The notes below the pieces were generated by a model. The model ran no database searches, was not told where the DNA came from, and saw only the letters and a list, made by a program, of their open reading frames with translations. Position numbers and translations under genes: made by a program. From a virus (lineage: Duplodnaviria; Caudoviricetes), in IMG/VR virus record IMGVR_UViG_3300043415_000095, positions 1-51,930 of that record: a stretch of DNA of 51,930 bases. One strand, given 5' to 3'. Of this stretch, positions 1 through 51,930 are shown piece after piece (the first letter of the stretch is position 1; every line of letters begins with the position of its first letter).

Positions 1-133
1 ATCCGCAAAAAAAAAATATCAAAAAAATCTCGTTTTTTTGCGTTTGCACTATTGCGTTTTTTTTTGCATTTGCTAGAATTCTCACAAGGTTTTCGGAAAG
101 GGTCCGGAAACAAAAACGAGGATTAAAACAATG
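1..133. repeat. Terminal direct repeat / circular overlap with 51799-51930
   Basis: 1-133 matches 51799-51930 except A10 vs A9 after ATCCGC. Confidence 0.95.
52..79 (+). promoter_or_regulatory. Sigma70-like promoter of the AT-rich early island
   Basis: TTGCGT (52-57), 16 bp spacer, extended -10 TGcTAGAAT (71-79), A/T tracts upstream; GAGG RBS before ATG 131. Confidence 0.6.
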
Positions 134-562
134 AGCTCTTATGTAATTAACGATGACACAATGTCGCGGGTATTAATGGCTTTTACCGCATGTTCACACT
201 ATGGCGACAAGATCGCGAGTTACTCGGCAAACCTTAAAGGCGCGGGAGAGGACTATCAGGTTGCCTACCTTTTGGCTATAGGAAATGCGCTTTACAGGGC
301 AAATAATAGGGCAGTAAATCAACGCTATTCGCTGAAAAACAAGGCTCCAAAATATAAGGGCAAAATTCCGATTGTGCACAATGGCGCAACAAAAAGGGAA
401 TTGTGCGACATATTAAAAGCGCTTGAATGCCTTTTGTATCAAATGTCAGAGGGCAATGTGTTTGGTTCGCGTATTTTTAATGAGCTTGAAAAAATAACCG
501 GAAACATAGGACGGGAAATTGCCAGAAGGTGCCCGGAATATGACGCGGCGCAGTGGGGATAA
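131..562 (+). CDS. Hypothetical phage early protein
   Basis: 143-aa ORF with RBS, first gene of the AT-rich operon. Confidence 0.8.
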   Translation: MSSYVINDDTMSRVLMAFTACSHYGDKIASYSANLKGAGEDYQVAYLLAIGNALYRANNRAVNQRYSLKNKAPKYKGKIPIVHNGATKRELCDILKALECLLYQMSEGNVFGSRIFNELEKITGNIGREIARRCPEYDAAQWG

Positions 563-564
563 AT

Positions 565-639
565 ATGGAAATTCTAAATTTATTTGCAATTAGCGCATGG
601 GCCTTGATTTTACTTTATAGCATTTTGGGAGGGTTTTAA
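565..639 (+). CDS. Small hydrophobic peptide (24 aa)
   Basis: MEILNLFAISAWALILLYSILGGF fills the gap between two genes almost exactly. Confidence 0.5.
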   Translation: MEILNLFAISAWALILLYSILGGF

Positions 640-640
640 A

Positions 641-1057
641 ATGGCTTACACAATGTACGCGGATGCCGGTCACGCTTGGCTTAAAGTCAAAAAATCAGAG
701 CTTTTTAACCTTGGAATAGCAGAAAAAATAACCCGGTATTCTTATCAGTATGGCGAATTCGCCTACCTTGAAGAGGATTGTGATTTATCCACGTTTGTAG
801 ATGCTATAGGCCGTGAAAAATGGCAAACAATAAAGGATAAAATTCCACTCAAAATGTCTGAATTTTCTAGGATTCGATCATATGCCACATATACCGCCAC
901 ACAATACCGGAAACCAAAACCCGGCGATTATATAAAGCTTGCGGGTAACTCGAATATTTTTATGATAATCGACGATAAAACTTGTAGGGATAAAGTCGGC
1001 AACTATTACAGACTGCCAAAAAATAGAATCACTGGTGAATTTTTCGCGGGTTTTTAA
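641..1057 (+). CDS. Conserved phage early protein (DxGHxWL...YLEEDCD type)
   Basis: DAGHAWLKV and AYLEEDCD motifs recur in phage early regions; GGAGG RBS. Confidence 0.8.
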   Translation: MAYTMYADAGHAWLKVKKSELFNLGIAEKITRYSYQYGEFAYLEEDCDLSTFVDAIGREKWQTIKDKIPLKMSEFSRIRSYATYTATQYRKPKPGDYIKLAGNSNIFMIIDDKTCRDKVGNYYRLPKNRITGEFFAGF

Positions 1058-1058
1058 T

Positions 1059-1730
1059 ATGAAACTTTTAAGTACGGCAAACACAAAAACTTTAAAGGGT
1101 GAAAAATTCGGGTATATCACTTATATCCTTCACCTTGCCCCATACAATTTGAGCGGCTTTCAAACTTGCCCAATGGCAAAAACGTGCCAAACAGCTTGCC
1201 TAAATACCTCCGGACGCGGTAAGTTTGACAACGTGCAATCGGCAAGGATACGCAAAACTCGTTATTTTTTCGAAAACCGGGCAGCTTTTATGGCTGATTT
1301 ATTCGCCGATATCATAGCAGCTAAAAGATACGCGGCAAAGCGCGGACTGATTCCCGTTTTCAGGTTAAACGGTACTTCAGACATTCCCTTTGAAAAAATC
1401 AGATTTTTAGATTATCGTAATATTTTTGAAGCTTTTCCGGATGTGACTTTTTACGATTATACAAAAATCCCAAACAGGAAAACCCCAGAAAATTATAGTT
1501 TAACATTTTCGCACGATGGCCAGAACTGGCAAGCATGTGAGCATGCTTTAAACAATGGGCAAAATGTGGCTGTAGTTTTTGACAATTTACCGGAAACCTT
1601 TAAAGGCTTTCGAGTCGAAAACGGCGATTTATCAGACTTGAGATTTATGGACAATAAAAACGTGATAATCGGATTAAAGGCAAAGGGAAAAGCAAAAAAA
1701 GATTTTTCCGGTTTCGTGGTACGCGCATGA
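1059..1730 (+). CDS. GP88-family protein (Cys-rich)
   Basis: LLSTANTKTLKG start, TCPxAxxCxxACL cysteine triad, RLNGTSD and FYDYTK motifs. Confidence 0.75.
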   Translation: MKLLSTANTKTLKGEKFGYITYILHLAPYNLSGFQTCPMAKTCQTACLNTSGRGKFDNVQSARIRKTRYFFENRAAFMADLFADIIAAKRYAAKRGLIPVFRLNGTSDIPFEKIRFLDYRNIFEAFPDVTFYDYTKIPNRKTPENYSLTFSHDGQNWQACEHALNNGQNVAVVFDNLPETFKGFRVENGDLSDLRFMDNKNVIIGLKAKGKAKKDFSGFVVRA

Positions 1731-1840
1731 ACAAAACGGCCACATTCTTTTGGGATTTATTTTTATTTTTAATTCACGTGCTTGGATTGGCTGTAATTGT
1801 AGTTTTTGCGATATGCGCGTTAAGCTTGCCTAAAAGGTAA
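1727..1840 (+). CDS. Small membrane protein (37 aa)
   Basis: ATGA overlap with upstream stop; MNKTATFFWDLFLFLIHVLGLAVIVVFAICALSLPKR has one TM helix. Confidence 0.6.
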   Translation: MNKTATFFWDLFLFLIHVLGLAVIVVFAICALSLPKR

Positions 1841-1855
1841 AGCATATCTGCGACG

Positions 1856-1885
1856 AAAAAGCCGGCTATTTAGCCGGCTTTTTTT
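1856..1885. terminator. Bidirectional rho-independent terminator
   Basis: AAAAA-GCCGGCTA-TT-TAGCCGGC-TTTTTTT. Confidence 0.85.
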
Positions 1886-2391
1886 GCCCTGGTCGATTGC
1901 CCTGGTCGACTGCCCTGATCGATTGCCCTGGTCGACTGCCCTGATCGACTGCCCTGATCGACTGCCCTGATCGATTGCCCTGGTCGATTGCCCTGGTCGA
2001 TTGCCCTGGTCGATTGCCCTGGTCGATTGCCCTGATCGATTGCCCTGGTCGACTGCCCTGGTCGATTGCCCTGGTCGATTGCCCTGATCGATTGCCCTGA
2101 TCGATTGCCCTGGTCGATTGCCCTGATCGATTGCCCTGATCGATTGCCCTGATCGATTGCCCTGGTCGATTGCCCTGGTCGATTGCCCTGATCGATTGCC
2201 CTGATCGACTGCCTTGGTCGATTGCCCTGGTCGATTGCCCTGGTCGATTGCCCTGGTCGATTGCCCTGATCGATTGCCCTGATCGACTGCCCTGATCGAC
2301 TGCCTTGGTCGATTGCCCTGGTCGATTGCCCTGATCGATTGCCCTGATCGATTGCCCTGATCGATTGCCCTGGTCGACTGCCTTGGTCGAT
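1885..2391. repeat. Tandem repeat, 39 x 13 bp TGCCYTGRTCGAY
   Basis: 507 bp of head-to-tail 13-mers varying at only three positions. Confidence 0.97.
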
Positions 2392-45787: not shown

Positions 45788-46748
45788 ACTTGCTGAGGTT
45801 TGCGGAGATTCTGTCGTTGCTGGCGGCTCTCAGCAGATGGCGCGTGAAGATGTCGCTGCCCCGTGCTTGGAAAGTGCCTTTTGCCAAAGCAGCAAAGTCG
45901 ATACGGCGCTGGTAGCTGCTGGCCTTGACGAACAGGAAGATGGGGCGGACAAAGCTGCCGCTGGTGACGCTATTGGTGCTGTTGAAGCGTTGCCAGATGC
46001 CGGCGGGGAGTTTGTTGGGGTTCCCTTTCCCTTTGATCATATCGATACCCGGCACCGCGCCTTGCGGTCCTCCCGAGACAAAGAACTCGGTGGAGAACGC
46101 GCCTCCCATCTGTTTGGCGAGTTTTTTGTTGAGCTTCGACCGGCCTTTCTCGCCCATGTTGGAGCGCACACCGACATCGCGCATGGCATCGAAATAGGTC
46201 AGCATCTGAATGATGAAACCCCGTTGCGGGTTGTCGTACTGATCCATGGGGCATCCTGCTGCCGGCACGACGTAGTAGCCCGGTTTGATTAGCCCTTTTT
46301 TCAGCAGCAAGCCTTCCATATCCTTATACCGACGAACCATTCCTTGGCCGAACTGATGAGCAAGTGCGCGTTCGTAGCGGTTCCCCCAGAAGGCTTTGCG
46401 ATTGCCGCCTTTGGAAAGCAAAGGCGCGATGTCATCGGCCACAAAATCCTGCTGCAAGCCGACGTAGGCGAAGTAGTTCTGGCGTTGGGCCACTTTGGCG
46501 GGGCCGGAGCCTACGGCGATCTGACGGACATCACTTAAATCCTTTAGGACGTTGATGGCCTTCATAGTCCACGGCGTAGGCTTGTGAAATACCGACTCCA
46601 TTTCGGTGTCCACGGTCTCCTTGATCTCAAACGCGATGTCGTTGACCGTCCGCTTGGCGGCATATCCGATTTGTCGTGACAGCACCTCGGGCAAGGCTTG
46701 CGCTGCCGCCGCAAAGTTGCTGGTCAAGGTGATATTCCAACCGCTCAT
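45780..46748 (-). CDS. Putative neck / tail-completion protein
   Basis: VFHKPTPWT motif; basic 322-aa protein. Confidence 0.55.
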   Translation of the reverse strand: MSGWNITLTSNFAAAAQALPEVLSRQIGYAAKRTVNDIAFEIKETVDTEMESVFHKPTPWTMKAINVLKDLSDVRQIAVGSGPAKVAQRQNYFAYVGLQQDFVADDIAPLLSKGGNRKAFWGNRYERALAHQFGQGMVRRYKDMEGLLLKKGLIKPGYYVVPAAGCPMDQYDNPQRGFIIQMLTYFDAMRDVGVRSNMGEKGRSKLNKKLAKQMGGAFSTEFFVSGGPQGAVPGIDMIKGKGNPNKLPAGIWQRFNSTNSVTSGSFVRPIFLFVKASSYQRRIDFAALAKGTFQARGSDIFTRHLLRAASNDRISANLSKYV

Positions 46749-48706
46749 ATCAGCGCACTCGATTGGCGGCGGTTTTGGCGAACCGGAGGCCGTATGGGCT
46801 GGGCCGCAGGCATGGCTTCTTCCACCTCGGGAATGGCATCCGATGCCTCGGCGGAGACGACGGGTTTAACCAGCGCCCCGGCCTGCTGCGCGACGATCTT
46901 GAGGCGAACGCCGGCTTGCTTGAGTGACTCCAGCGCGGCCAGGGCGTAAACGAAGCAGTCGAGCGCCTCGTTGCGGGCACCAGCGGGTTTTTTCCACGCT
47001 CTGACTGCAACGCCCGACTTGTTGTAGGTGGTGACCCGCTTTTCACTGGTTAGCTGCACGAAGTAGCTGTCTGGAAGGTCGGCGGCGAAGCTGACGGCGC
47101 GGGGCCGATCCGGGTTGCTGACGGCCAGGGCGGAGCGCAACTGATCCTTGGCGGTATCGACGCCAACGAGGTACAACTGGACACCCTGACTGAGTTTGGT
47201 CTTGGTGGTCTTGTTCGGCCAAACCGGATGGTTACCTGCACGGCCTTTTACCGGGAATACCTTGCGGCTGGCGCGGCCTCGACAGAATTCGTAAGCGCGT
47301 TGGGTGTGGTGCCCGCCGGTATCAATGGCGACACTGCGTATGCGAAGGACTCGGCCATCCTGACAGGTGAACTGGCCCAAGAGGACGTTGTCGAGTTCGG
47401 TCCACAGTTGCGCTTCGCCGGGTGCGCCCCAGAGTTGCAGATGGTCTAGCACCCGGGCCTGCTCGGAGCCGGTCCAGCCGACCAAGGTGACTTCCAGTCG
47501 ATCATCCTGTACGTCCACCCCCGCTGTAATCAGCGCAACGTCCGCAGGGATAGCGTGAACATCCCAGGCTTCCCGCCGCGTCATCAGGGATTCGTGATCG
47601 ACCTTTTCGCCGGAGCGGTCTTCCCAGCACTGGCCCAGCTTGGTGTTGATGAACGATTGCAGCTTGGTGCTGTGGCCCTTGGCCTTGATGAAGTCCTTGG
47701 CGGCATCGCCCCAGGAATACCAACCCGGCGGCGAGTAGAGAGAAGACAGGTGAAAGCCGACCATGCCGCTGTCAAGTCCCTCGGCGGTAGAAATCCACTC
47801 GCCGTTGTCAAGCATCCAGCCCTTGTGCCGTTCATCAATGAGGACGCCGCAATGTTGGCAGGTGAGTGCGGCTGACTCCGGGTTGCCTTCTTCCCAGATG
47901 ATGCGGGTCCAGTCGATGATCTGCTTCGCGTGACAGTCGGGGCACGGGACGTGGTAGTAGCGTTGGTCGGTTTCCTGAAAGGCTTTCCAGATGCGCGACT
48001 CGCCCTCGATGGTGGGCGTGGAACACATGAAGATTTTGCGGTTGCGCTTGAAGGTGGCGGTACGGGCGATGGCCAGCTCAATCGGATCCCCTTCCCCTTC
48101 GACATCGCCTGGGTACGCATCCACCTCATCAAGGAACAGGTAGCGGGCCGGCATAGAGCGGAGGCCGGTCGCTGAGTTCGCGCCGGTCATCACCAGAGTG
48201 CCGCCGGCGAAGTCTTTCTGCTGGAGGGTGTTGCCGGCATCGCGGGCGCGGCTGGGGGCGATGCGCTCGGCCAGAACCGGCGTCACCTCAATCATCGGTT
48301 GTACCCGCTGCTTGGAGATACGCTTGACCATGTCTATGGTCGGCTGGACCATAAGCATGGGTGCCGGCGCGTGGTGGATGCAGTACCCGAGCCAGTTGCT
48401 GCCGGCCTCGGTCGCGCCGATTTGTGCGCCCTTGGCAAAGACGACGGTGTGATATGGACTGCCGGTGGAAAGCGCATCTAGGATGGCCTTGAGGTAAGGC
48501 GTTCTGGAGGTGCGCCACGGGCCGGGTTCCGCCGAGCCTTTGCTGGGCAGGATGCGATGTGCGTCGGCCCACTCAGAGACCAGCAGGACCGGCTCGGGCC
48601 GGCAGCGGTCGTACAGGCGGCTGATGGTGCGGCGGAGTTCGTCCGCCGGATCATCAATCGTTGGCGCGTGGTAGGACGGAGTCGTGGGCATTGGTGACAT
48701 GCTCAA
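46745..48706 (-). CDS. Terminase large subunit (lambda gpA family)
   Basis: KGAQIGATE, FLDEVD, CSTPT, GVDVQ, IDTGG, RNEALDC. Confidence 0.95.
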   Translation of the reverse strand: MSMSPMPTTPSYHAPTIDDPADELRRTISRLYDRCRPEPVLLVSEWADAHRILPSKGSAEPGPWRTSRTPYLKAILDALSTGSPYHTVVFAKGAQIGATEAGSNWLGYCIHHAPAPMLMVQPTIDMVKRISKQRVQPMIEVTPVLAERIAPSRARDAGNTLQQKDFAGGTLVMTGANSATGLRSMPARYLFLDEVDAYPGDVEGEGDPIELAIARTATFKRNRKIFMCSTPTIEGESRIWKAFQETDQRYYHVPCPDCHAKQIIDWTRIIWEEGNPESAALTCQHCGVLIDERHKGWMLDNGEWISTAEGLDSGMVGFHLSSLYSPPGWYSWGDAAKDFIKAKGHSTKLQSFINTKLGQCWEDRSGEKVDHESLMTRREAWDVHAIPADVALITAGVDVQDDRLEVTLVGWTGSEQARVLDHLQLWGAPGEAQLWTELDNVLLGQFTCQDGRVLRIRSVAIDTGGHHTQRAYEFCRGRASRKVFPVKGRAGNHPVWPNKTTKTKLSQGVQLYLVGVDTAKDQLRSALAVSNPDRPRAVSFAADLPDSYFVQLTSEKRVTTYNKSGVAVRAWKKPAGARNEALDCFVYALAALESLKQAGVRLKIVAQQAGALVKPVVSAEASDAIPEVEEAMPAAQPIRPPVRQNRRQSSALI

Positions 48707-49067
48707 GGGCGCGGCGCAATTCGTTTTCGAGTACCTGCTCTATCGTTTTCGCATTATTTTCGGCAGCAAAAATCGCGGCGTAGCGACCGGGAATCGTCAG
48801 TAGCTGTTCTCGAAATGCCGAGGCCGCAGTATCCAGCGCCTGGAACACGGACTCCTGCGACAGCAGTTGCCCGCGCTTTTCCTTGTATTCGATCTCAGCC
48901 AGATGGGCGAGGTAGGACTCTTTCTTGGCCCGAGCTTCAGCCATATCCAGAATGGCGGCGGCTTTTTCGACAGAGAAGTCTCTGGATGCACTGGGCGCGG
49001 AGTTCTTGCCGCCTTTCTTTCTGCCGGAGCCGGGTCGTCTACCCCCCTTCCCCGTGAAGACTTCCAT
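48654..49067 (-). CDS. Terminase small subunit
   Basis: GGRRPGSGRK; ARAKKE coiled coil; precedes terL. Confidence 0.75.
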   Translation of the reverse strand: MEVFTGKGGRRPGSGRKKGGKNSAPSASRDFSVEKAAAILDMAEARAKKESYLAHLAEIEYKEKRGQLLSQESVFQALDTAASAFREQLLTIPGRYAAIFAAENNAKTIEQVLENELRRALEHVTNAHDSVLPRAND

Positions 49068-49071
49068 AGGT

Positions 49072-49293
49072 TCACCTGTTGTAGAGTCGCTCGATTCGTT
49101 CATGCTCGGTTTGGCAGAAGGCGCAGCGGCTGGCTGTGGGCACGGCGCGAAGCCGGGTGGCTTCAATCAGTTCGCCGCAGTCGAGGCAAAAGTCATGGGC
49201 GCGTTTGATCGGTCGGGCCGATTGCTGTTGCTGCCGGTAAAGTGTTTCCATCCGTTCCGCCGTTTCCTGCGCCCGGTCGGCGTCATCGGCCAT
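49072..49293 (-). CDS. TraR/DksA C4 zinc-finger protein
   Basis: MADDADRA...CLDCGELI...RL...RCAFCQ. Confidence 0.9.
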   Translation of the reverse strand: MADDADRAQETAERMETLYRQQQQSARPIKRAHDFCLDCGELIEATRLRAVPTASRCAFCQTEHERIERLYNR

Positions 49294-49495
49294 TGGTCGT
49301 TGAAAGCCGTGTCAATGTCAGATCAATCTCGCGCAGAGATTTCTGAAGTTCACGATATTGGTCATCGTGTTTGTCCAGATGCTCCTTGAACCCGGCCTCA
49401 ATCTGGCCGAGTCGGTATTCGTGCTGCTGGACCATTGACCACACGGCAAATACCGCCGCTCCTACCGTGCCTGCAATCTTGAGCCAGTCGCTCAT
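49283..49495 (-). CDS. Small membrane-anchored coiled-coil protein
   Basis: N-terminal TM followed by coiled coil. Confidence 0.6.
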   Translation of the reverse strand: MSDWLKIAGTVGAAVFAVWSMVQQHEYRLGQIEAGFKEHLDKHDDQYRELQKSLREIDLTLTRLSTTNGR

Positions 49496-49594
49496 AGTTA
49501 TGCTCCGTATCCATTTCACAAGTGATGTGAGCCATGAGTCCTGACTGTCTGATAGCCTCAAGTGTGAGTGTGTTGCCATAGTCGTCCGGGATAA

Positions 49595-49897
49595 TCAGTG
49601 AGGGTTTGAACTGACAGCCGCACCCGGCAAGGAAGGTCGCAGCAATTCCCGCGCCCGCGCATAGCCAATAAGCATGACTTCGCCGCCCTTGTTGGCGGTG
49701 ACTCTGCTGTTCTTGATGTCCAGCACCACATCGTCGGGAATTGGCGGCATGACTAGCTTTGGGCATGTCTGCGCTTGCGGAATGTCCACGGAAATGTCCG
49801 CGACTTTCGGAGCGCAGCCGGGTAGCAGGACAAAAGCAATGACGACGCAAGCGCACCACAGCATGTAGCCGATCAGCTCTGCGAAGGCTTCTTTCAT
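49595..49897 (-). CDS. Lipoprotein, possible spanin component
   Basis: Hydrophobic signal ending LLPG-C; Pro-rich; in lysis cassette. Confidence 0.55.
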   Translation of the reverse strand: MKEAFAELIGYMLWCACVVIAFVLLPGCAPKVADISVDIPQAQTCPKLVMPPIPDDVVLDIKNSRVTANKGGEVMLIGYARARELLRPSLPGAAVSSNPH

Positions 49898-50346
49898 GCA
49901 GCCACCTCCCACAGATGCTTCTTGATGGTCAGGTCGCTGCAAGTGTCGATGCGCTTCCGTGATGGGACGTTCCAGTTACCGCCACCAGCTGCGCCGACAA
50001 GCCTCCACCCAGCGCCACGCAACGAAGCACCGCCTTCCGAAGGCAGCGTATATGTGATTAGCCTTGTGTAGCCCATGCCTTTTGCCGCCCGCCACGCAGC
50101 CGAATAAAGCATCGAACAAGCGTTTTTTGTGCCATCAGTACAAAGCCGATTGACTTCAGCAGTTATGCCGTCGTCAAGATGCCTTGAAACCGGCCTGCCA
50201 ACGATGACCACACCGACAATTTCACCTTCGTCATTAACACAGGAAATGCTGAACTTATGTCCAACCGTTGGTTTATGGTGTCTGTGCTTCTCGGCAACAA
50301 AAGCGTTTGCGTCGCGTAGTGTGCAGGGGCGGATTCGCAAGGTCAT
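49894..50346 (-). CDS. XF1762-family protein (Mom/GNAT-like)
   Basis: ANAFVAEKHRHH, GRPVSR, EVNRLCTDG, LITYTL, GASLRGAGW. Confidence 0.75.
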   Translation of the reverse strand: MTLRIRPCTLRDANAFVAEKHRHHKPTVGHKFSISCVNDEGEIVGVVIVGRPVSRHLDDGITAEVNRLCTDGTKNACSMLYSAAWRAAKGMGYTRLITYTLPSEGGASLRGAGWRLVGAAGGGNWNVPSRKRIDTCSDLTIKKHLWEVAA

Positions 50347-50441
50347 GCAACCACCCACATCAGGACGCCAGTGAAGATGGCAGCAACGGCAATCACGATG
50401 GTGAGGCCGATGGCGATTTGGTGGAGGAAGTCTTCGGTCAT
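50343..50441 (-). CDS. Small membrane peptide (32 aa)
   Basis: One TM helix; ATGA coupling at both ends. Confidence 0.5.
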   Translation of the reverse strand: MTEDFLHQIAIGLTIVIAVAAIFTGVLMWVVA

Positions 50442-50926
50442 GTGGTCATCACCTTCAATCTGCGATCTGCGATTCCGGCGATCTTCTGCGCTTTGTCTTT
50501 GCCATTGATGCAGCGACGCGCACCGACCATATCGTTCTTGGTAGCGTTGATGTAGTCGGTGATTTTCTTTCCGGTGAACTTCCCGGTACGGAAGCCGTGG
50601 ACGAGGATGAAGCAGGCTATTTCAGGCTGCATCGCCAGATCAGGATTGCCCACCAGGTCAATGCCCAGCAGGTCCGCGTACCAGCGGTAGTTGTATTCCC
50701 AGGTGAGTTGGACATAGCCGCGTCCGTAGTAGGGGTAGTAGCGGAAGCGTTTCCGATACCACTCCGGCATCCAGTACGCCTCGCGAACCGGCTTGAAGGT
50801 GCCGTTGGTTTCATGCTCGACGGTCGCCAGTACATAGGCGATCTGCGCTGGAAGTGTCAGTCCTTGGCGGATGCACTCTGCCTCGATGGCAGCGACAGTG
50901 CCGGCGCGAGTAGTGAAGTCAGTCAT
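50438..50926 (-). CDS. Endolysin (GH19/lysozyme-like fold)
   Basis: LATVEHET, YYGRGYVQLTW..NY, ARRCING. Confidence 0.85.
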   Translation of the reverse strand: MTDFTTRAGTVAAIEAECIRQGLTLPAQIAYVLATVEHETNGTFKPVREAYWMPEWYRKRFRYYPYYGRGYVQLTWEYNYRWYADLLGIDLVGNPDLAMQPEIACFILVHGFRTGKFTGKKITDYINATKNDMVGARRCINGKDKAQKIAGIADRRLKVMTT

Positions 50927-51152
50927 CCCGTCCACGCTTCAGAACGTCCTGAATGCTCTCGGAGGTATCGAGGATTTCCTGGCTTTCTTTTGGTGACAAT
51001 CCAGAACCCGTGGTACGCCAAGCGATCAAGGCCATGATGACCATGCCCACGGCAAGCAACACGGTTTTTTCAGTGCCGGTGTCCATCGCGGTGATGGCCG
51101 ACATCACCAGCCAGACGACGGCGGTCCAATTTTGGCCGGTGTTGGTACTCAC
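50919..51152 (-). CDS. Putative holin
   Basis: Two TM segments, charged C-terminus, upstream of endolysin. Confidence 0.55.
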   Translation of the reverse strand: MSTNTGQNWTAVVWLVMSAITAMDTGTEKTVLLAVGMVIMALIAWRTTGSGLSPKESQEILDTSESIQDVLKRGRDD

Positions 51153-51409
51153 ATACCCTCCTTCGCAATTCGCAGCTTGGCCACGCTGAGTTCAATCAGC
51201 AAGTTGATCAGCCATTGGGCGGCAACGATGCCGATCAACTTCACCTCGTCTGCCACCCCGTCAAATTTCTCGTCGCCCGAATAGGGTTCGCCGTCTGGAT
51301 CGAGCTTGTCGTCCCAGCGTTCAACGGCGGCTTGGATGCGATCCACCGTGCCTGAGTCGATCAGGGCAGAGGCCAGGGTCAGGATGAGGTTGATAACGAC
51401 AGCGTTCAT
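51149..51409 (-). CDS. Hypothetical protein, first late-operon gene
   Basis: AAGGAG RBS; 86 aa. Confidence 0.7.
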   Translation of the reverse strand: MNAVVINLILTLASALIDSGTVDRIQAAVERWDDKLDPDGEPYSGDEKFDGVADEVKLIGIVAAQWLINLLIELSVAKLRIAKEGM

Positions 51410-51440
51410 GGCGCTCCTTGATGAGGACGGTTTGCGCGGG

Positions 51441-51491
51441 ATTATACAACATATTGTGTTTTGTCAAGAACTTTGACACAAGATGTAGTGT
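51441..51491 (-). promoter_or_regulatory. Late-operon promoter overlapped by tandem NrdR-box-like sites
   Basis: TTGACA-N15-TATAAT on minus strand; boxes at 51444-51459 and 51476-51491. Confidence 0.7.
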
Positions 51492-51569
51492 TTTGGCTTT
51501 GAAAAATTTACAGCGGCTATATAAGGAAAGATTCGTGCCAGATTTTTCAATTTCGAGCGCAGACGCTAA

Positions 51570-51620
51570 AAAACCATCGAGGTCAGCACTACCCTCTTGA
51601 TTTATAAGGGAAAAGGACCC
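51570..51620 (-). other. Candidate cos site (cosQ plus cosN)
   Basis: Minus strand GGGTCCT-N22-TAGTGCTGACCT-CGATGGTTTT parallels lambda GGGTCCT...GGGCGGCGACCT-CGCGGGTTTT. Confidence 0.65.
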
Positions 51621-51629
51621 GCGCGGCCT

Positions 51630-51804
51630 GGGCCATCAGCTCGGGCCATCGGCCTGGGCCATCAGCTCGGGCCATCGGCCTGGGCCATCCGCTCAAGTCC
51701 ATCCGCTCAAGCCCATCCGCCCAGGCCCATCCGCCCAGGTCCATCCGCCCAGGTCCATCCGCCCAGGTCCATCCGCCCAGGTCCATCCGCCCAGGTCCAT
51801 CCGC
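51630..51804. repeat. Compound tandem repeat: 4 x 13 bp, then 8.5 x 14 bp
   Basis: Alternating GGGCCATCAGCTC/GGGCCATCGGCCT, then CCATCCGCYCARGY. Confidence 0.95.
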
Positions 51805-51930
51805 AAAAAAAAATATCAAAAAAATCTCGTTTTTTTGCGTTTGCACTATTGCGTTTTTTTTTGCATTTGCTAGAATTCTCACAAGGTTTTCGGAAAGGGT
51901 CCGGAAACAAAAACGAGGATTAAAACAATG

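What the first reader, a model, noticed from the sequence alone, without database searches (positions are those of the whole stretch)
51441..51491. Tandem NrdR boxes over the lysis/late promoter: late genes gated by host dNTP sensing?
Seen: ATACAACATATTGTGT (51444) and ACACAAGATGTAGTGT (51476) each match the NrdR consensus acaCwAtATaTwGtgt at 14/16 and start 32 bp apart. The first covers the spacer and part of the -10 of a TTGACA-N15-TATAAT promoter facing the lysis and virion genes. Known: NrdR binds such tandem boxes about three turns apart and represses when dATP-loaded. No ribonucleotide reductase gene is present here. Inference: the phage uses host NrdR so that late genes switch on when replication or dNTP-depleting defence drains the pool.
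Basis: partly seen in the sequence, partly recalled or inferred. Interest (0 to 1): 0.85.

Follow-up and report, generated by a model that had tools for sequence, protein, structure and literature searches.

The report
NrdR operator on phage late promoter
The promoter that drives this phage's lysis, packaging and virion genes carries a textbook-quality binding site for the host's deoxynucleotide-sensing repressor NrdR, which suggests that the phage ties its late genes to the state of the host's DNA-precursor pool.

Summary
ATACAACATATTGTGT (51444-51459) and ACACAAGATGTAGTGT (51476-51491) are the window's only matches to the NrdR-box pattern (2 found, 0.22 expected). The linker is 16 bp. They flank the -35 and overlap the -10 of the window's only perfect TTGACA/TATAAT pair, which heads a 30-kb minus-strand block of lysis, terminase and virion genes.

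A weight matrix built from 44 boxes of 22 nrdA promoters, from the order of a candidate host, scores them 22.2 and 19.7 bits. The next best site scores 10.2. Both boxes meet every published sequence requirement for NrdR binding. The window encodes no NrdR and no ribonucleotide reductase. One related contig keeps the layout.

Paired boxes of this kind are common in viral contigs (at least 119 stretches). In 25 of 118 loci they precede terminase or portal genes.

Best reading (0.65): host NrdR represses the late promoter and releases it when dATP falls.

Weak points:
- Nothing is shown biochemically.
- The promoter spacer is only 15 nt.
- The host is inferred.
- The link to dNTP-depleting defence has no support.

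I found no paper describing this. I rate it a new variant of a known kind.

The parts
51476..51491 (.). Promoter-distal NrdR-type box, ACACAAGATGTAGTGT on the + strand. It lies just upstream of the -35 of the minus-strand late promoter.
   Evidence: 0 mismatches to the pattern. Scores 19.7 bits with the nrdA-derived matrix, above 41 of 44 host-order boxes. C4, A6, A8, T9, T11 and G13 are present, and 6 of 8 bases between C4 and G13 are A/T (criteria).
51444..51459 (.). Promoter-proximal NrdR-type box, ATACAACATATTGTGT on the + strand. It covers the promoter spacer and 3 bases of the -10.
   Evidence: 1 mismatch. Scores 22.2 bits, above 44 of 44 host-order boxes. All six conserved positions are present, and 7 of 8 bases between C4 and G13 are A/T.
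51460..51475 (.). 16-bp linker between the boxes. It contains the -35 hexamer.
   Evidence: A linker of 15-17 bp is the optimum for four NrdR proteins in vitro, and 15-17 bp gives efficient repression in a reporter (passages of PMC12051234).
51462..51467 (-). -35 hexamer TTGACA of the late promoter.
   Evidence: Conserved in L003 at 127-132.
51441..51446 (-). -10 hexamer TATAAT of the late promoter, 15 nt after the -35.
   Evidence: Conserved in L003 at 148-153 with the same 15-nt spacer. Not called by the 16-18-nt scan.
51149..51409 (-). First gene of the late block: 86 aa with hydrophobic ends and no family match. AAGGAG lies at 51419..51414.
50919..51152 (-). 77-aa membrane protein with a weak holin match.
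   Evidence: phrog_3428 holin, E 0.0083. Translation.
50438..50935 (-). Endolysin (glycoside hydrolase 19 type).
   Evidence: PF00182, E 1.5e-07. phrog_181 endolysin, E 4.8e-28.
49894..50358 (-). Mom-like DNA-modification gene inside the late block.
   Evidence: phrog_1384, E 9.9e-42. Absent from L003 and from contigs of runs X3 and X4, which skip 449 bases at 49901-50351.
48654..49166 (-). Terminase small subunit.
   Evidence: phrog_57, E 4.8e-17.
46745..48706 (-). Terminase large subunit, lambda gpA type.
   Evidence: PF05876, E 4.1e-97, and PF20454, E 7.6e-86.

Best explanation
The two palindromes are a paired operator for the host's NrdR repressor, built into the core of the phage's late promoter. 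That promoter heads the minus-strand block of lysis, Mom, terminase and virion genes (51409 down to about 21347).

Proposed mechanism:
1. NrdR loaded with dATP plus ATP binds as a tetramer to two boxes three helical turns apart (established for nrd promoters).
2. In this window that binding would cover the -35 and the -10 and keep RNA polymerase off.
3. When phage DNA replication, which depends on host ribonucleotide reductase, lowers dATP relative to ATP, NrdR changes its oligomeric state and leaves the DNA.
4. The late operon and the host nrd genes are then released together.

What is shown: the sequence, its uniqueness in the genome, its fit to NrdR sites, its place on the promoter, and its recurrence.

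What is inferred: that NrdR binds it, that binding represses, and that the trigger is a fall in dNTPs.

Because NrdR repression is usually partial (recalled, not from a call), a temperate phage (integrase at 20318-21343) probably needs a further control of this promoter. NrdR is therefore more likely a timer or modulator than the only gate.
For: 1. Uniqueness. There are 2 matches in the window against 0.22 expected. Both lie at the same promoter, 32 bp apart.

2. Independent matrix. I examined 27 nrdA loci from the order of G001. 22 had a box pair scoring at least 20 of 26: 19 at 32 bp and 3 at 31 bp, and 16 with TTGAC directly after the distal box. A matrix made from their 44 boxes scores the window boxes 22.2 and 19.7 bits. 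The next best of 51,915 positions scores 10.2, and the window mean is -25.3.

3. Published requirements are met in both boxes. These are C4 and G13 critical, A6 and T11 apparently critical, and at least 63% A/T between C4 and G13 (section 10 of PMC13584703). The 16-bp linker lies within the 15-17 bp optimum (passages of PMC12051234).

4. Promoter overlap. This is the only perfect TTGACA-N14-19-TATAAT in the window (expected 0.01). The -35 sits in the linker and the -10 overlaps the proximal box. The nrdA promoters have the same general design.

5. No phage source of the binder. TIGR00244 gives no match even at E 10, and there is no ATP-cone. The only recognisable DNA-binding proteins are a KilA-N protein and an excisionase-like HTH_17 protein.

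6. Candidate host has the system. A MAG contig titled Methylococcus sp. UBA6136 carries a TerL 85-86% identical to the window's. That genome encodes NrdR (223.7 bits), and its nrdA promoter has paired boxes 32 bp apart.

7. Relative. L003 (TerL 92% identical) has ACACTACATGTTGTGC and CCACAAGATGTTGTAT at the same place, with the same -35, -10 and spacings. The 4 differences within the 32 box positions fall at positions 1, 7, 10 and 16, which are not among the six conserved positions. Meanwhile 5 of the 16 linker positions differ, all outside TTGACA. The lysis genes downstream are different ones.

8. Recurrence. None of 80 such records encodes NrdR above the cut-off. In 25 of 118 loci, the first ORF of at least 150 aa reading away from the boxes is a terminase large subunit, a portal or a head-tail connector. 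These fall into 6 BLAST clusters, with locus GC from 0.34 to 0.70.

9. Physiology elsewhere. Lytic infection by pneumococcal phage SpSL1 strongly upregulates the host transcripts that are preceded by NrdR sites (PMC6755750, abstract and Fig. 4 legend).
Against: - No binding, footprint, transcript start or expression datum exists for this site.
- The promoter spacer is 15 nt, which is short for sigma-70. The tool's scan, limited to 16-18 nt, calls no promoter in 51100-51930. The promoter may therefore be weak or need help.
- The host is inferred from one 5.2-kb contig binned into a MAG. Binning of phage contigs can be wrong.
- Only one relative holds the promoter region. The whole intergenic stretch is 87-100% identical there, so conservation of the boxes discriminates little.
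- Of 401 genomes searched in the order of G001, 28 hold a gpA-type TerL (30-86% identical). In none of them do paired boxes (up to 2 mismatches) lie beside the TerL. The feature is therefore not general to the wider phage group.
- The spacing contrast in viral contigs is not clean. There are 5 stretches at 37 bp, but 55 at 27 bp, which is also out of phase. 20 of those 55 loci also hold a 42-bp pair.
- The enrichment for terminase and portal genes may partly reflect that these are the most recognisable large genes at the heads of phage operons. I did not test it against a matched background.
Confidence: 0.65

Rival explanations
1. The boxes are real NrdR sites, but their main role is to act as a sink. 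As the phage genome is copied many times, the high-affinity pairs would draw NrdR away from the host nrd promoters. That would raise host ribonucleotide reductase for a phage that has none of its own. Any effect on the late promoter would be secondary.
For: The phage lacks every RNR class searched. It does carry its own DNA polymerase, helicase, primase-like VapE protein, thymidylate synthase and MazG-like pyrophosphatase, so it depends on host dNTP supply. Its boxes score higher than 44 of 44 and 41 of 44 nrdA boxes from the host's order.
Against: A free-standing decoy would not need to sit exactly over the -35 and -10 of the only perfect promoter in the genome, and the relative keeps that arrangement. 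There is one site per genome. The numbers of NrdR molecules and of phage genome copies are unknown. This role is compatible with the best explanation rather than exclusive of it.
Confidence: 0.12
2. The palindromes are the operator of a phage-encoded regulator (a repressor or late activator) that happens to resemble the NrdR box.
For: Most small early ORFs have no family, so an unrecognised DNA-binding protein cannot be excluded. Paired 16-bp palindromes three turns apart would also suit a dimer-of-dimers phage repressor. A lysogen needs tight control of lysis genes. Some phages do encode NrdR homologues (annotation tables or legends in PMC8790148, PMC5894146 and PMC10294663).
Against: No other copy of the motif occurs anywhere in the genome, including the early region, whereas phage repressors usually act at several operators (recalled). 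The window has no NrdR homologue, ATP-cone, CI-like or Cro-like family hit. The same six conserved positions, flanks and linker recur in viral contigs of GC 0.31-0.70 whose neighbouring genes are unrelated. A conserved host factor explains that better than many different phage proteins.
Confidence: 0.12
3. The sites are terminase recognition elements (cosB-type R sites) or part of a replication origin next to the iteron-like repeats, and not a transcriptional operator.
For: The terminase is of the lambda gpA type with a small subunit. Contig L003 ends at window position 51593. Arrays of 26-bp and 14-bp tandem repeats, followed by an A/T-rich tract, lie 130-380 bp away.
Against: The boxes are 2.3 kb and five genes from the TerS gene, whereas lambda's cosB lies directly before Nu1 (recalled). 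The L003 contig end, and the end of the contig of run X3 (at 51491), lie beside repeat arrays where assemblies commonly break. Three other related contigs end at 49387-49447 instead. R sites are not NrdR-like palindromes (recalled). Nothing ties NrdR-type boxes to iterons.
Confidence: 0.04
4. Chance resemblance with no function.
For: The 2025 preprint 10.1101/2025.03.28.645925 (passages) warns that single NrdR-box hits in genome scans are mostly false positives.
Against: There are two top-scoring boxes at the optimal spacing, placed on the genome's only perfect promoter. The next best site scores 9.5 bits below the weaker box. The arrangement is kept in a relative.
Confidence: 0.02

Closest known systems
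NrdR operators of bacterial ribonucleotide reductase promoters (E. coli nrdAB, nrdHIEF, nrdDG; S. coelicolor nrdRJ; here also the nrdA promoters of the order of G001)
   Same: Two 16-bp partial palindromes with C4, A6, A8, T9, T11 and G13, a 15-16 bp linker, and overlap with the -35 and -10.
   Different: The gene controlled is not a reductase but a phage lysis, packaging and virion operon. The phage has no reductase at all. The -35 sits 8 bp further into the linker than in the nrdA promoters, and the -10 overlaps the 3' end of the proximal box instead of lying inside it. A 2025 preprint found paired boxes only at RNR operons in E. coli and P. aeruginosa (passages).
Temperate phages that borrow a host repressor for lytic genes, such as GIL01 with host LexA
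   Same: A host global repressor's operator is placed on phage promoters, so a host physiological signal decides phage gene expression.
   Different: The signal there is DNA damage through LexA, and it mainly governs the lysogeny-lysis decision. Here the signal would be the dATP/ATP state through NrdR, acting on the late operon. The GIL01 paper (PMC6182141) was seen only as a search listing with abstract. The rest is recalled.
Replication-coupled late transcription of phage T4 (sliding clamp gp45 as activator)
   Same: It works alike in outcome: late genes are tied to ongoing phage DNA replication.
   Different: T4 uses its own clamp, sigma factor and co-activator on replicating DNA. Here a host repressor would sense the metabolic consequence of replication. 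There is no homology. PMC2988020 was seen only as a listing with abstract.
Lambda late promoter pR' with Q antitermination
   Same: Same genome position and gene order: a late promoter ahead of the lysis genes, followed by small and large terminase of the gpA type.
   Different: No Q-like gene or qut-type site was identified here, and control would act at initiation through a repressor. The lambda details are recalled, not from a call.

Membership tests
Paired NrdR operator | 16-bp partial palindrome with the six conserved positions C4, A6, A8, T9, T11 and G13 | tested here: met
   Both window boxes and both L003 boxes carry all six. Criteria come from PMC13584703, section 10.
Paired NrdR operator | At least 63% A/T between C4 and G13 | tested here: met
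   7 of 8 bases (box at 51444) and 6 of 8 bases (box at 51476). Criterion.
Paired NrdR operator | Two boxes separated by a 15-17 bp linker (three helical turns centre to centre) | tested here: met
   The linker at 51460-51475 is 16 bp. The optimum is from passages of PMC12051234.
Paired NrdR operator | Scores like genuine sites with a matrix built from independent nrd promoters | tested here: met
   22.2 and 19.7 bits against a host-order box range of 9.1-21.0 (median 18.1). The next window site scores 10.2. The training sites were themselves picked by consensus score, which favours the consensus.
Paired NrdR operator | Overlaps the core promoter of the regulated operon | tested here: met
   The -35 lies in the linker and the -10 overlaps the proximal box. 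The promoter is predicted only, and its spacer is 15 nt.
Paired NrdR operator | Lies upstream of a ribonucleotide reductase operon or of nrdR itself | tested here: not met
   The downstream genes are lysis, Mom, terminase and virion genes. There is no RNR or nrdR in the record. This is the point of difference. It concerns the regulon, not the nature of the site.
Paired NrdR operator | The host encodes NrdR | tested here: inconclusive
   The candidate host genome G001 has NrdR at 223.7 bits. The host link rests on one MAG contig with a TerL 85-86% identical to the window's.
Paired NrdR operator | Bound by NrdR loaded with dATP and ATP, and repression is relieved in an nrdR mutant | not testable with these tools
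   Needs EMSA or MST and reporter assays.
Lambda-type cosB (terminase R sites) | Lies between cosN and the small-terminase gene and is bound by the small terminase | tested here: not met
   The boxes lie 2.3 kb and five genes upstream of TerS (49166). No cohesive end is mapped. Contig ends near 51491-51593 adjoin repeat arrays. Binding is not testable. The definition is recalled.
Phage repressor operator set (CI/Cro type) | Several related operators at early promoters, plus a phage-encoded HTH repressor | tested here: not met
   There is no further copy of the motif in the window. No CI-like or Cro-like family was found among the 40 ORFs scanned. Unknown ORFs remain.

The most novel reading that the evidence does not exclude
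NrdR, the near-universal bacterial sensor of the dATP/ATP balance, is a host factor that many unrelated phages and phage-like elements have independently wired into the promoters of their packaging, morphogenesis and lysis genes. This would give them a replication-coupled late switch that reads nucleotide-pool depletion. The window is one clean example of that rule, and its boxes may also titrate NrdR to boost host dNTP synthesis.
Probability: 0.4. Interest if true: 0.85.

Novelty: new variant of a known kind. Interest (0 to 1): 0.72.

Why it matters
NrdR is described in the papers I read as a repressor specific to ribonucleotide reductase operons. One of them states that paired boxes occur only there in E. 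coli and P. aeruginosa.

A paired, better-than-host operator on a phage late promoter would extend the NrdR regulon to viruses. So would its recurrence in front of terminase and portal genes in many viral contigs. It would also offer a simple answer to an old question: how phages without a dedicated late activator delay packaging and lysis until DNA has been made.

The idea is cheap to test. NrdR proteins from distant phyla bind each other's sites, and GFP reporter and binding assays already exist.

It also predicts two things:
- Drugs or defences that disturb dNTP pools change phage timing.
- nrdR mutants of hosts show altered latent periods.

Tried and rejected
- **Close DNA relatives among named phages:** none. 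The nearest named TerL is that of Acidithiobacillus phage AcaML1, at 50% identity.
- **More relatives holding the promoter.** A family-specific pattern in viral contigs and a 23-base conserved flank in metagenome contigs both found only the contig already known (L003 = L013 = L178).
- **Laying contigs of runs X3-X6**. One further contig (run X3) covers 51404-51491 with 8 of 88 letters different. The table of differences was cut before that region, so I could not read its boxes.
- **RNA evidence:** no RNA holder is listed for 49000-51800. This is no evidence either way.
- **Structured RNA or tRNA in the conserved stretch beside the boxes:** no Rfam family and no tRNA in the window. The fold of 51492-51625 is no better than shuffles (z 0.83).
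- **cos at about 51595:** rejected as unsupported.
- **A plus-strand promoter using the same boxes.** TTGACA at 51473-51478 has no -10 at a usable distance (read; one search finds none).
- **LexA-type boxes:** not seen in 51400-51600 (read; the LexA motif is recalled).
- **Named relatives of the other box-bearing viral contigs.** L061 has no DNA match in phages or in E. coli genomes. Protein searches with L081, L067 and L117 gave only relatives of 56% identity or less. Of three named phages checked, only Pontimonas phage phiPsal1 has a weak pair (19 of 26) before its TerS. phiBT1 and Mae-JY09 have none.
- **Helical-phase control.** The contrast between 32 bp and 37 bp is strong (at least 119 against 5), but 27 bp gave 55 stretches. 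I do not claim a clean phase rule for viral sites.
- **TTGAC in the linker of viral sites:** 14 of 105 unique sites against 11 of 444 control 20-mers. Among the 8 packaging-adjacent loci that have it, its orientation agrees with the packaging gene in 5 and disagrees in 3, two of which are the same site. This is too weak to use.
- **Not used or unavailable.** Supplementary files of papers were not consulted. The genome-wide box lists of 10.1101/2025.03.28.645925 (its Supplementary Table 4) could bear on whether prophage sites were seen there.
Full report
**What the window is.** The window is a viral record of 51,930 bases whose first 131 bases repeat at the end. It is therefore a circularly assembled phage genome of about 51.8 kb, and CheckV rates it 100% complete.

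The plus strand, from 131 to about 21,343, carries early and replication genes:
- two exonuclease pieces;
- a gp2.5-like single-strand binding protein;
- a KilA-N protein;
- a split family-A DNA polymerase;
- a helicase;
- an HNH endonuclease;
- a thymidylate synthase;
- an excisionase-like HTH protein;
- an integrase.

A minus-strand island holds a MazG-like pyrophosphatase and a VapE-type primase.

The minus strand from 51,409 down to about 21,347 carries, in order, an 86-aa protein without family, a 77-aa weak holin match, a GH19 endolysin, a Mom-like gene, small and gpA-type large terminase, and then the virion genes. The finding lies in the roughly 520-bp space between these two divergent blocks.

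With the degenerate box pattern and up to two mismatches, they are the only two matches in the genome on either strand. The expectation is 0.22, and 1 of 100 shuffles reached two.

On the minus strand, TTGACA (51467..51462) and TATAAT (51446..51441) are separated by 15 nt. This is the only perfect pair of hexamers at 14-19 nt anywhere in the window (expected 0.01). One box covers the spacer and three bases of the -10. The other abuts the -35 from upstream. A Shine-Dalgarno AAGGAG and the ATG at 51409 follow.

Promoter-like sites inside the 30-kb late block are no more frequent than in shuffles: 2 against 6.3, and 5 against 6.7. This promoter is therefore the obvious head of the block. The caveat is the 15-nt spacer. 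The tool's scan accepts only 16-18 nt and reports nothing in 51100-51930.

**Are they NrdR boxes?** I built an independent reference. A MAG contig titled Methylococcus sp. UBA6136 encodes a TerL 85-86% identical to the window's. That genome (G001) encodes NrdR at 223.7 bits. Its class I reductase gene is preceded by two boxes 32 bp apart.

I then took 27 nrdA loci from 41 genomes of that order and looked upstream for the best box pair at 31-33 bp.
- 22 loci had a pair scoring at least 20 of 26.
- 19 of those were at 32 bp and 3 at 31 bp.
- In 16 of the 22, TTGAC directly follows the distal box, and a TATAGT-like -10 lies inside the proximal box.

A symmetrised weight matrix from those 44 boxes scores the window's boxes 22.2 and 19.7 bits. 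The third-best position scores 10.2, and the window mean is -25.3 with standard deviation 8.9. The phage boxes outscore 44 of 44 and 41 of 44 of the host-order boxes. The training sites were chosen by consensus score, which biases the matrix towards the consensus, but they are independent sequences.

The published mutational study gives these requirements: C4 and G13 critical, A6 and T11 apparently critical, and at least 63% A/T between C4 and G13 (PMC13584703, section 10). Both boxes meet all of them. The 16-bp linker lies within the 15-17 bp optimum found for four NrdR proteins in vitro and in a reporter (PMC12051234, passages).

**Who would bind.** The window encodes no NrdR (no match even at E 10), no ATP-cone and no reductase of class I/II, small subunit or class III. 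Among 40 ORFs scanned, the only recognisable DNA-binding proteins are the KilA-N protein and the HTH_17 excisionase-like protein. The motif has no further copy in the early region, where a phage repressor would be expected to act. A host protein is therefore the simplest binder.

**Relatives.** Only one related contig reaches the promoter. It is L003, also fetched as L013 and L178. It has ACACTACATGTTGTGC and CCACAAGATGTTGTAT 32 bp apart, with TTGACA in the linker and TATAAT 15 nt later.

In the alignment, the four differences inside the 32 box positions fall at positions 1, 7, 10 and 16. None touches the six conserved positions. Five of the 16 linker positions differ, all outside the -35. This fits selection on the boxes, but the numbers are small and the whole intergenic stretch is highly similar. 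The 60 bases at 51536-51595 are identical.

The lysis genes downstream are not the same in the two phages: a GH19 endolysin here and a lysozyme-like gene there, with no Mom gene in L003. The promoter module is thus kept across a swapped cassette.

A contig of another run also covers 51404-51491 at 91% identity, but I could not read its letters.

More distant prophages do not show the feature. Of 401 genomes searched in the same order, 28 hold a gpA-type TerL at 30-86% identity. In none does a box pair with up to two mismatches lie next to the TerL. The feature is a trait of this lineage, not of the wider group.

**Is it a one-off?** No. The unconstrained flanks of the 80 listed sites mostly read AC/CC/AT at the start and GT/GG/AT at the end, as in NrdR boxes.

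Spacing counts:

| Start-to-start spacing | Stretches |
|---|---|
| 37 bp | 5 |
| 27 bp | 55 |

Twenty of the 55 loci at 27 bp also hold a 42-bp pair, often as three-box clusters. The preference for whole turns is therefore strong against 37 bp but not clean against 27 bp.

Among the 80 listed loci (79 distinct records, one of them the window's relative):
- none encodes NrdR above the cut-off;
- 2 have a class I/II large subunit and 11 have a class III reductase;
- the 7 weak TIGR00244 hits are the ATP-cones of those class III genes;
- 7 of the 14 records rated at least 90% complete have no reductase large subunit.

The nearest ORFs (93 from the 80 loci) include no reductase among the 24 Pfam families hit.

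I then took the first ORF of at least 150 aa reading away from the boxes, within 1.5 kb. This gave 95 ORFs from 118 loci. The commonest Pfam families are terminase large subunits of three types (6, 3 and 2 members) and portals or connectors of three types (5, 2 and 2 members).

Family hits on representatives combined with BLAST clustering give 25 of 118 loci, or 22 unique sites. These fall into six clusters, with locus GC between 0.34 and 0.70:
- one cluster has the boxes between the large terminase and the portal, with TTGACA or TTGACT in the linker in three of its five members;
- another has them about 150-165 bp before the large terminase;
- others have room for a small-terminase gene in between.

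I did not compare this frequency with a matched background, so I claim recurrence, not enrichment.

A named phage, Pontimonas phage phiPsal1, has a weaker pair (19 of 26) at 40-87, just before its small terminase.

**How it would work.** NrdR loaded with dATP and ATP forms a DNA-binding tetramer. With ATP alone it forms other oligomers that do not bind (abstracts in the listing; passages).

Here the tetramer would sit on the -35 and the -10. This phage replicates with its own polymerase but has no reductase, so replication must draw on the host dNTP pool. A fall of dATP relative to ATP would release NrdR from the host nrd promoters and from the phage late promoter at once.

The NrdR regulon is in fact strongly induced during lytic infection by a pneumococcal phage (PMC6755750, abstract and Fig. 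4 legend). The result would be late gene expression coupled to replication, reached in T4 by quite different means. Every step after the presence of the site is inference.

Two reservations apply. The 15-nt spacer may make the promoter weak or dependent on another factor. And NrdR repression is usually partial (recalled), which is not enough to silence lysis genes in a lysogen, so a second control is likely. A sink function, in which phage copies titrate NrdR to raise host reductase, is compatible with this reading. I list it as a rival for the main role.

**Comparison with what is known.** As a DNA element it passes every sequence test for a paired NrdR operator. It fails only the regulon criterion, since it is not upstream of a reductase.

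The papers I could search treat NrdR as specific to reductase operons. A 2025 preprint reports that only RNR operons have paired boxes in E. coli and P. aeruginosa, and that the only published box search is the original description (passages). Five searches found no paper that links NrdR boxes to phage late, lysis or packaging genes:
- NrdR with phage and NrdR box;
- NrdR with prophage;
- NrdR with bacteriophage and late genes;
- NrdR with terminase;
- the NrdR regulon, box and binding-site terms.

The original 2005 description is not in the searchable library and I did not read it. Supplements were closed.

**Verdict.**
- Observation: confirmed.
- Interpretation: supported as to what the site is; unproven as to physiology; unsupported as to defence sensing.
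- Novelty: a new variant of a known kind, namely a known operator in a new regulatory setting that appears to be widespread in viruses.
- Interest: 0.72.
- Confidence in the best explanation: 0.65.

Noticed in passing
window 51624-51870: There are two adjoining tandem-repeat arrays: a 26-bp unit x 2.7 at 51624-51694 and a 14-bp unit CCATCCGCCCAGGT x 8.6 at 51685-51804. A long A/T-rich tract with runs of A and T follows. The layout is iteron-like and lies between the divergent early and late blocks, so it is a candidate replication origin. Contigs of relatives end beside it.
   Followed up: partly
window 51536-51595: These 60 bases upstream of the boxes are 100% identical in L003, although the lysis genes next door differ. 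There is no Rfam hit and no fold better than shuffles. The function is unknown.
   Followed up: partly
window 49894-51409 versus L003:180-1450: The lysis cassette is mosaic. The window has a GH19 endolysin and a Mom-like gene. L003 has a lysozyme-like gene and no Mom. Contigs of runs X3 and X4 skip 449 bases at 49901-50351.
   Followed up: partly
window 1-2000: The first 2 kb (ORFs at 131-562, 641-1057 and 1035-1730) have GC 0.41 against 0.49-0.61 elsewhere. Two of the three ORFs have no family.
   Followed up: no
window 49387-49447: Three related contigs (L001, L002, L014) all begin within about 60 bp of each other here, upstream of TerS. This is either a mosaic boundary or a genome end.
   Followed up: partly
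G085: C131:607-650, C132:164-207, C247:27768-27811: The same paired-box sequence occurs three times on three contigs of one genome of the host order, twice near contig ends. This suggests a repeated mobile element that carries an NrdR-type site.
   Followed up: no
viral loci L223, L225, L256, L260, L270, L311, L327, L328, L343, L349 and others: Three-box clusters have box cores at 0, 15 and 42 bp. This arrangement is not described in the NrdR papers I read.
   Followed up: no
L040:120-300 and L101:2700-2960: Contigs of about 0.40 GC carry four or more NrdR-like boxes in a row, interspersed with G/C hairpins, ahead of a T4-type large terminase.
   Followed up: no
L209 (Pontimonas phage phiPsal1, MG835450.1) 40-87: A weak paired box, GGTCTAGGTGTAGTGG and CCACAACATGTAGGAG 32 bp apart, lies directly before the small terminase gene of a cultured actinobacterial phage.
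   Followed up: partly
G001:C47:1320-1335 (L023): A single strong box, ACACAACATGTAGTTC, overlaps a TATAAT-like -10 ahead of an ORF beginning MLNWEDP. From memory this looks like the reductase small subunit. The partner box is degenerate.
   Followed up: no
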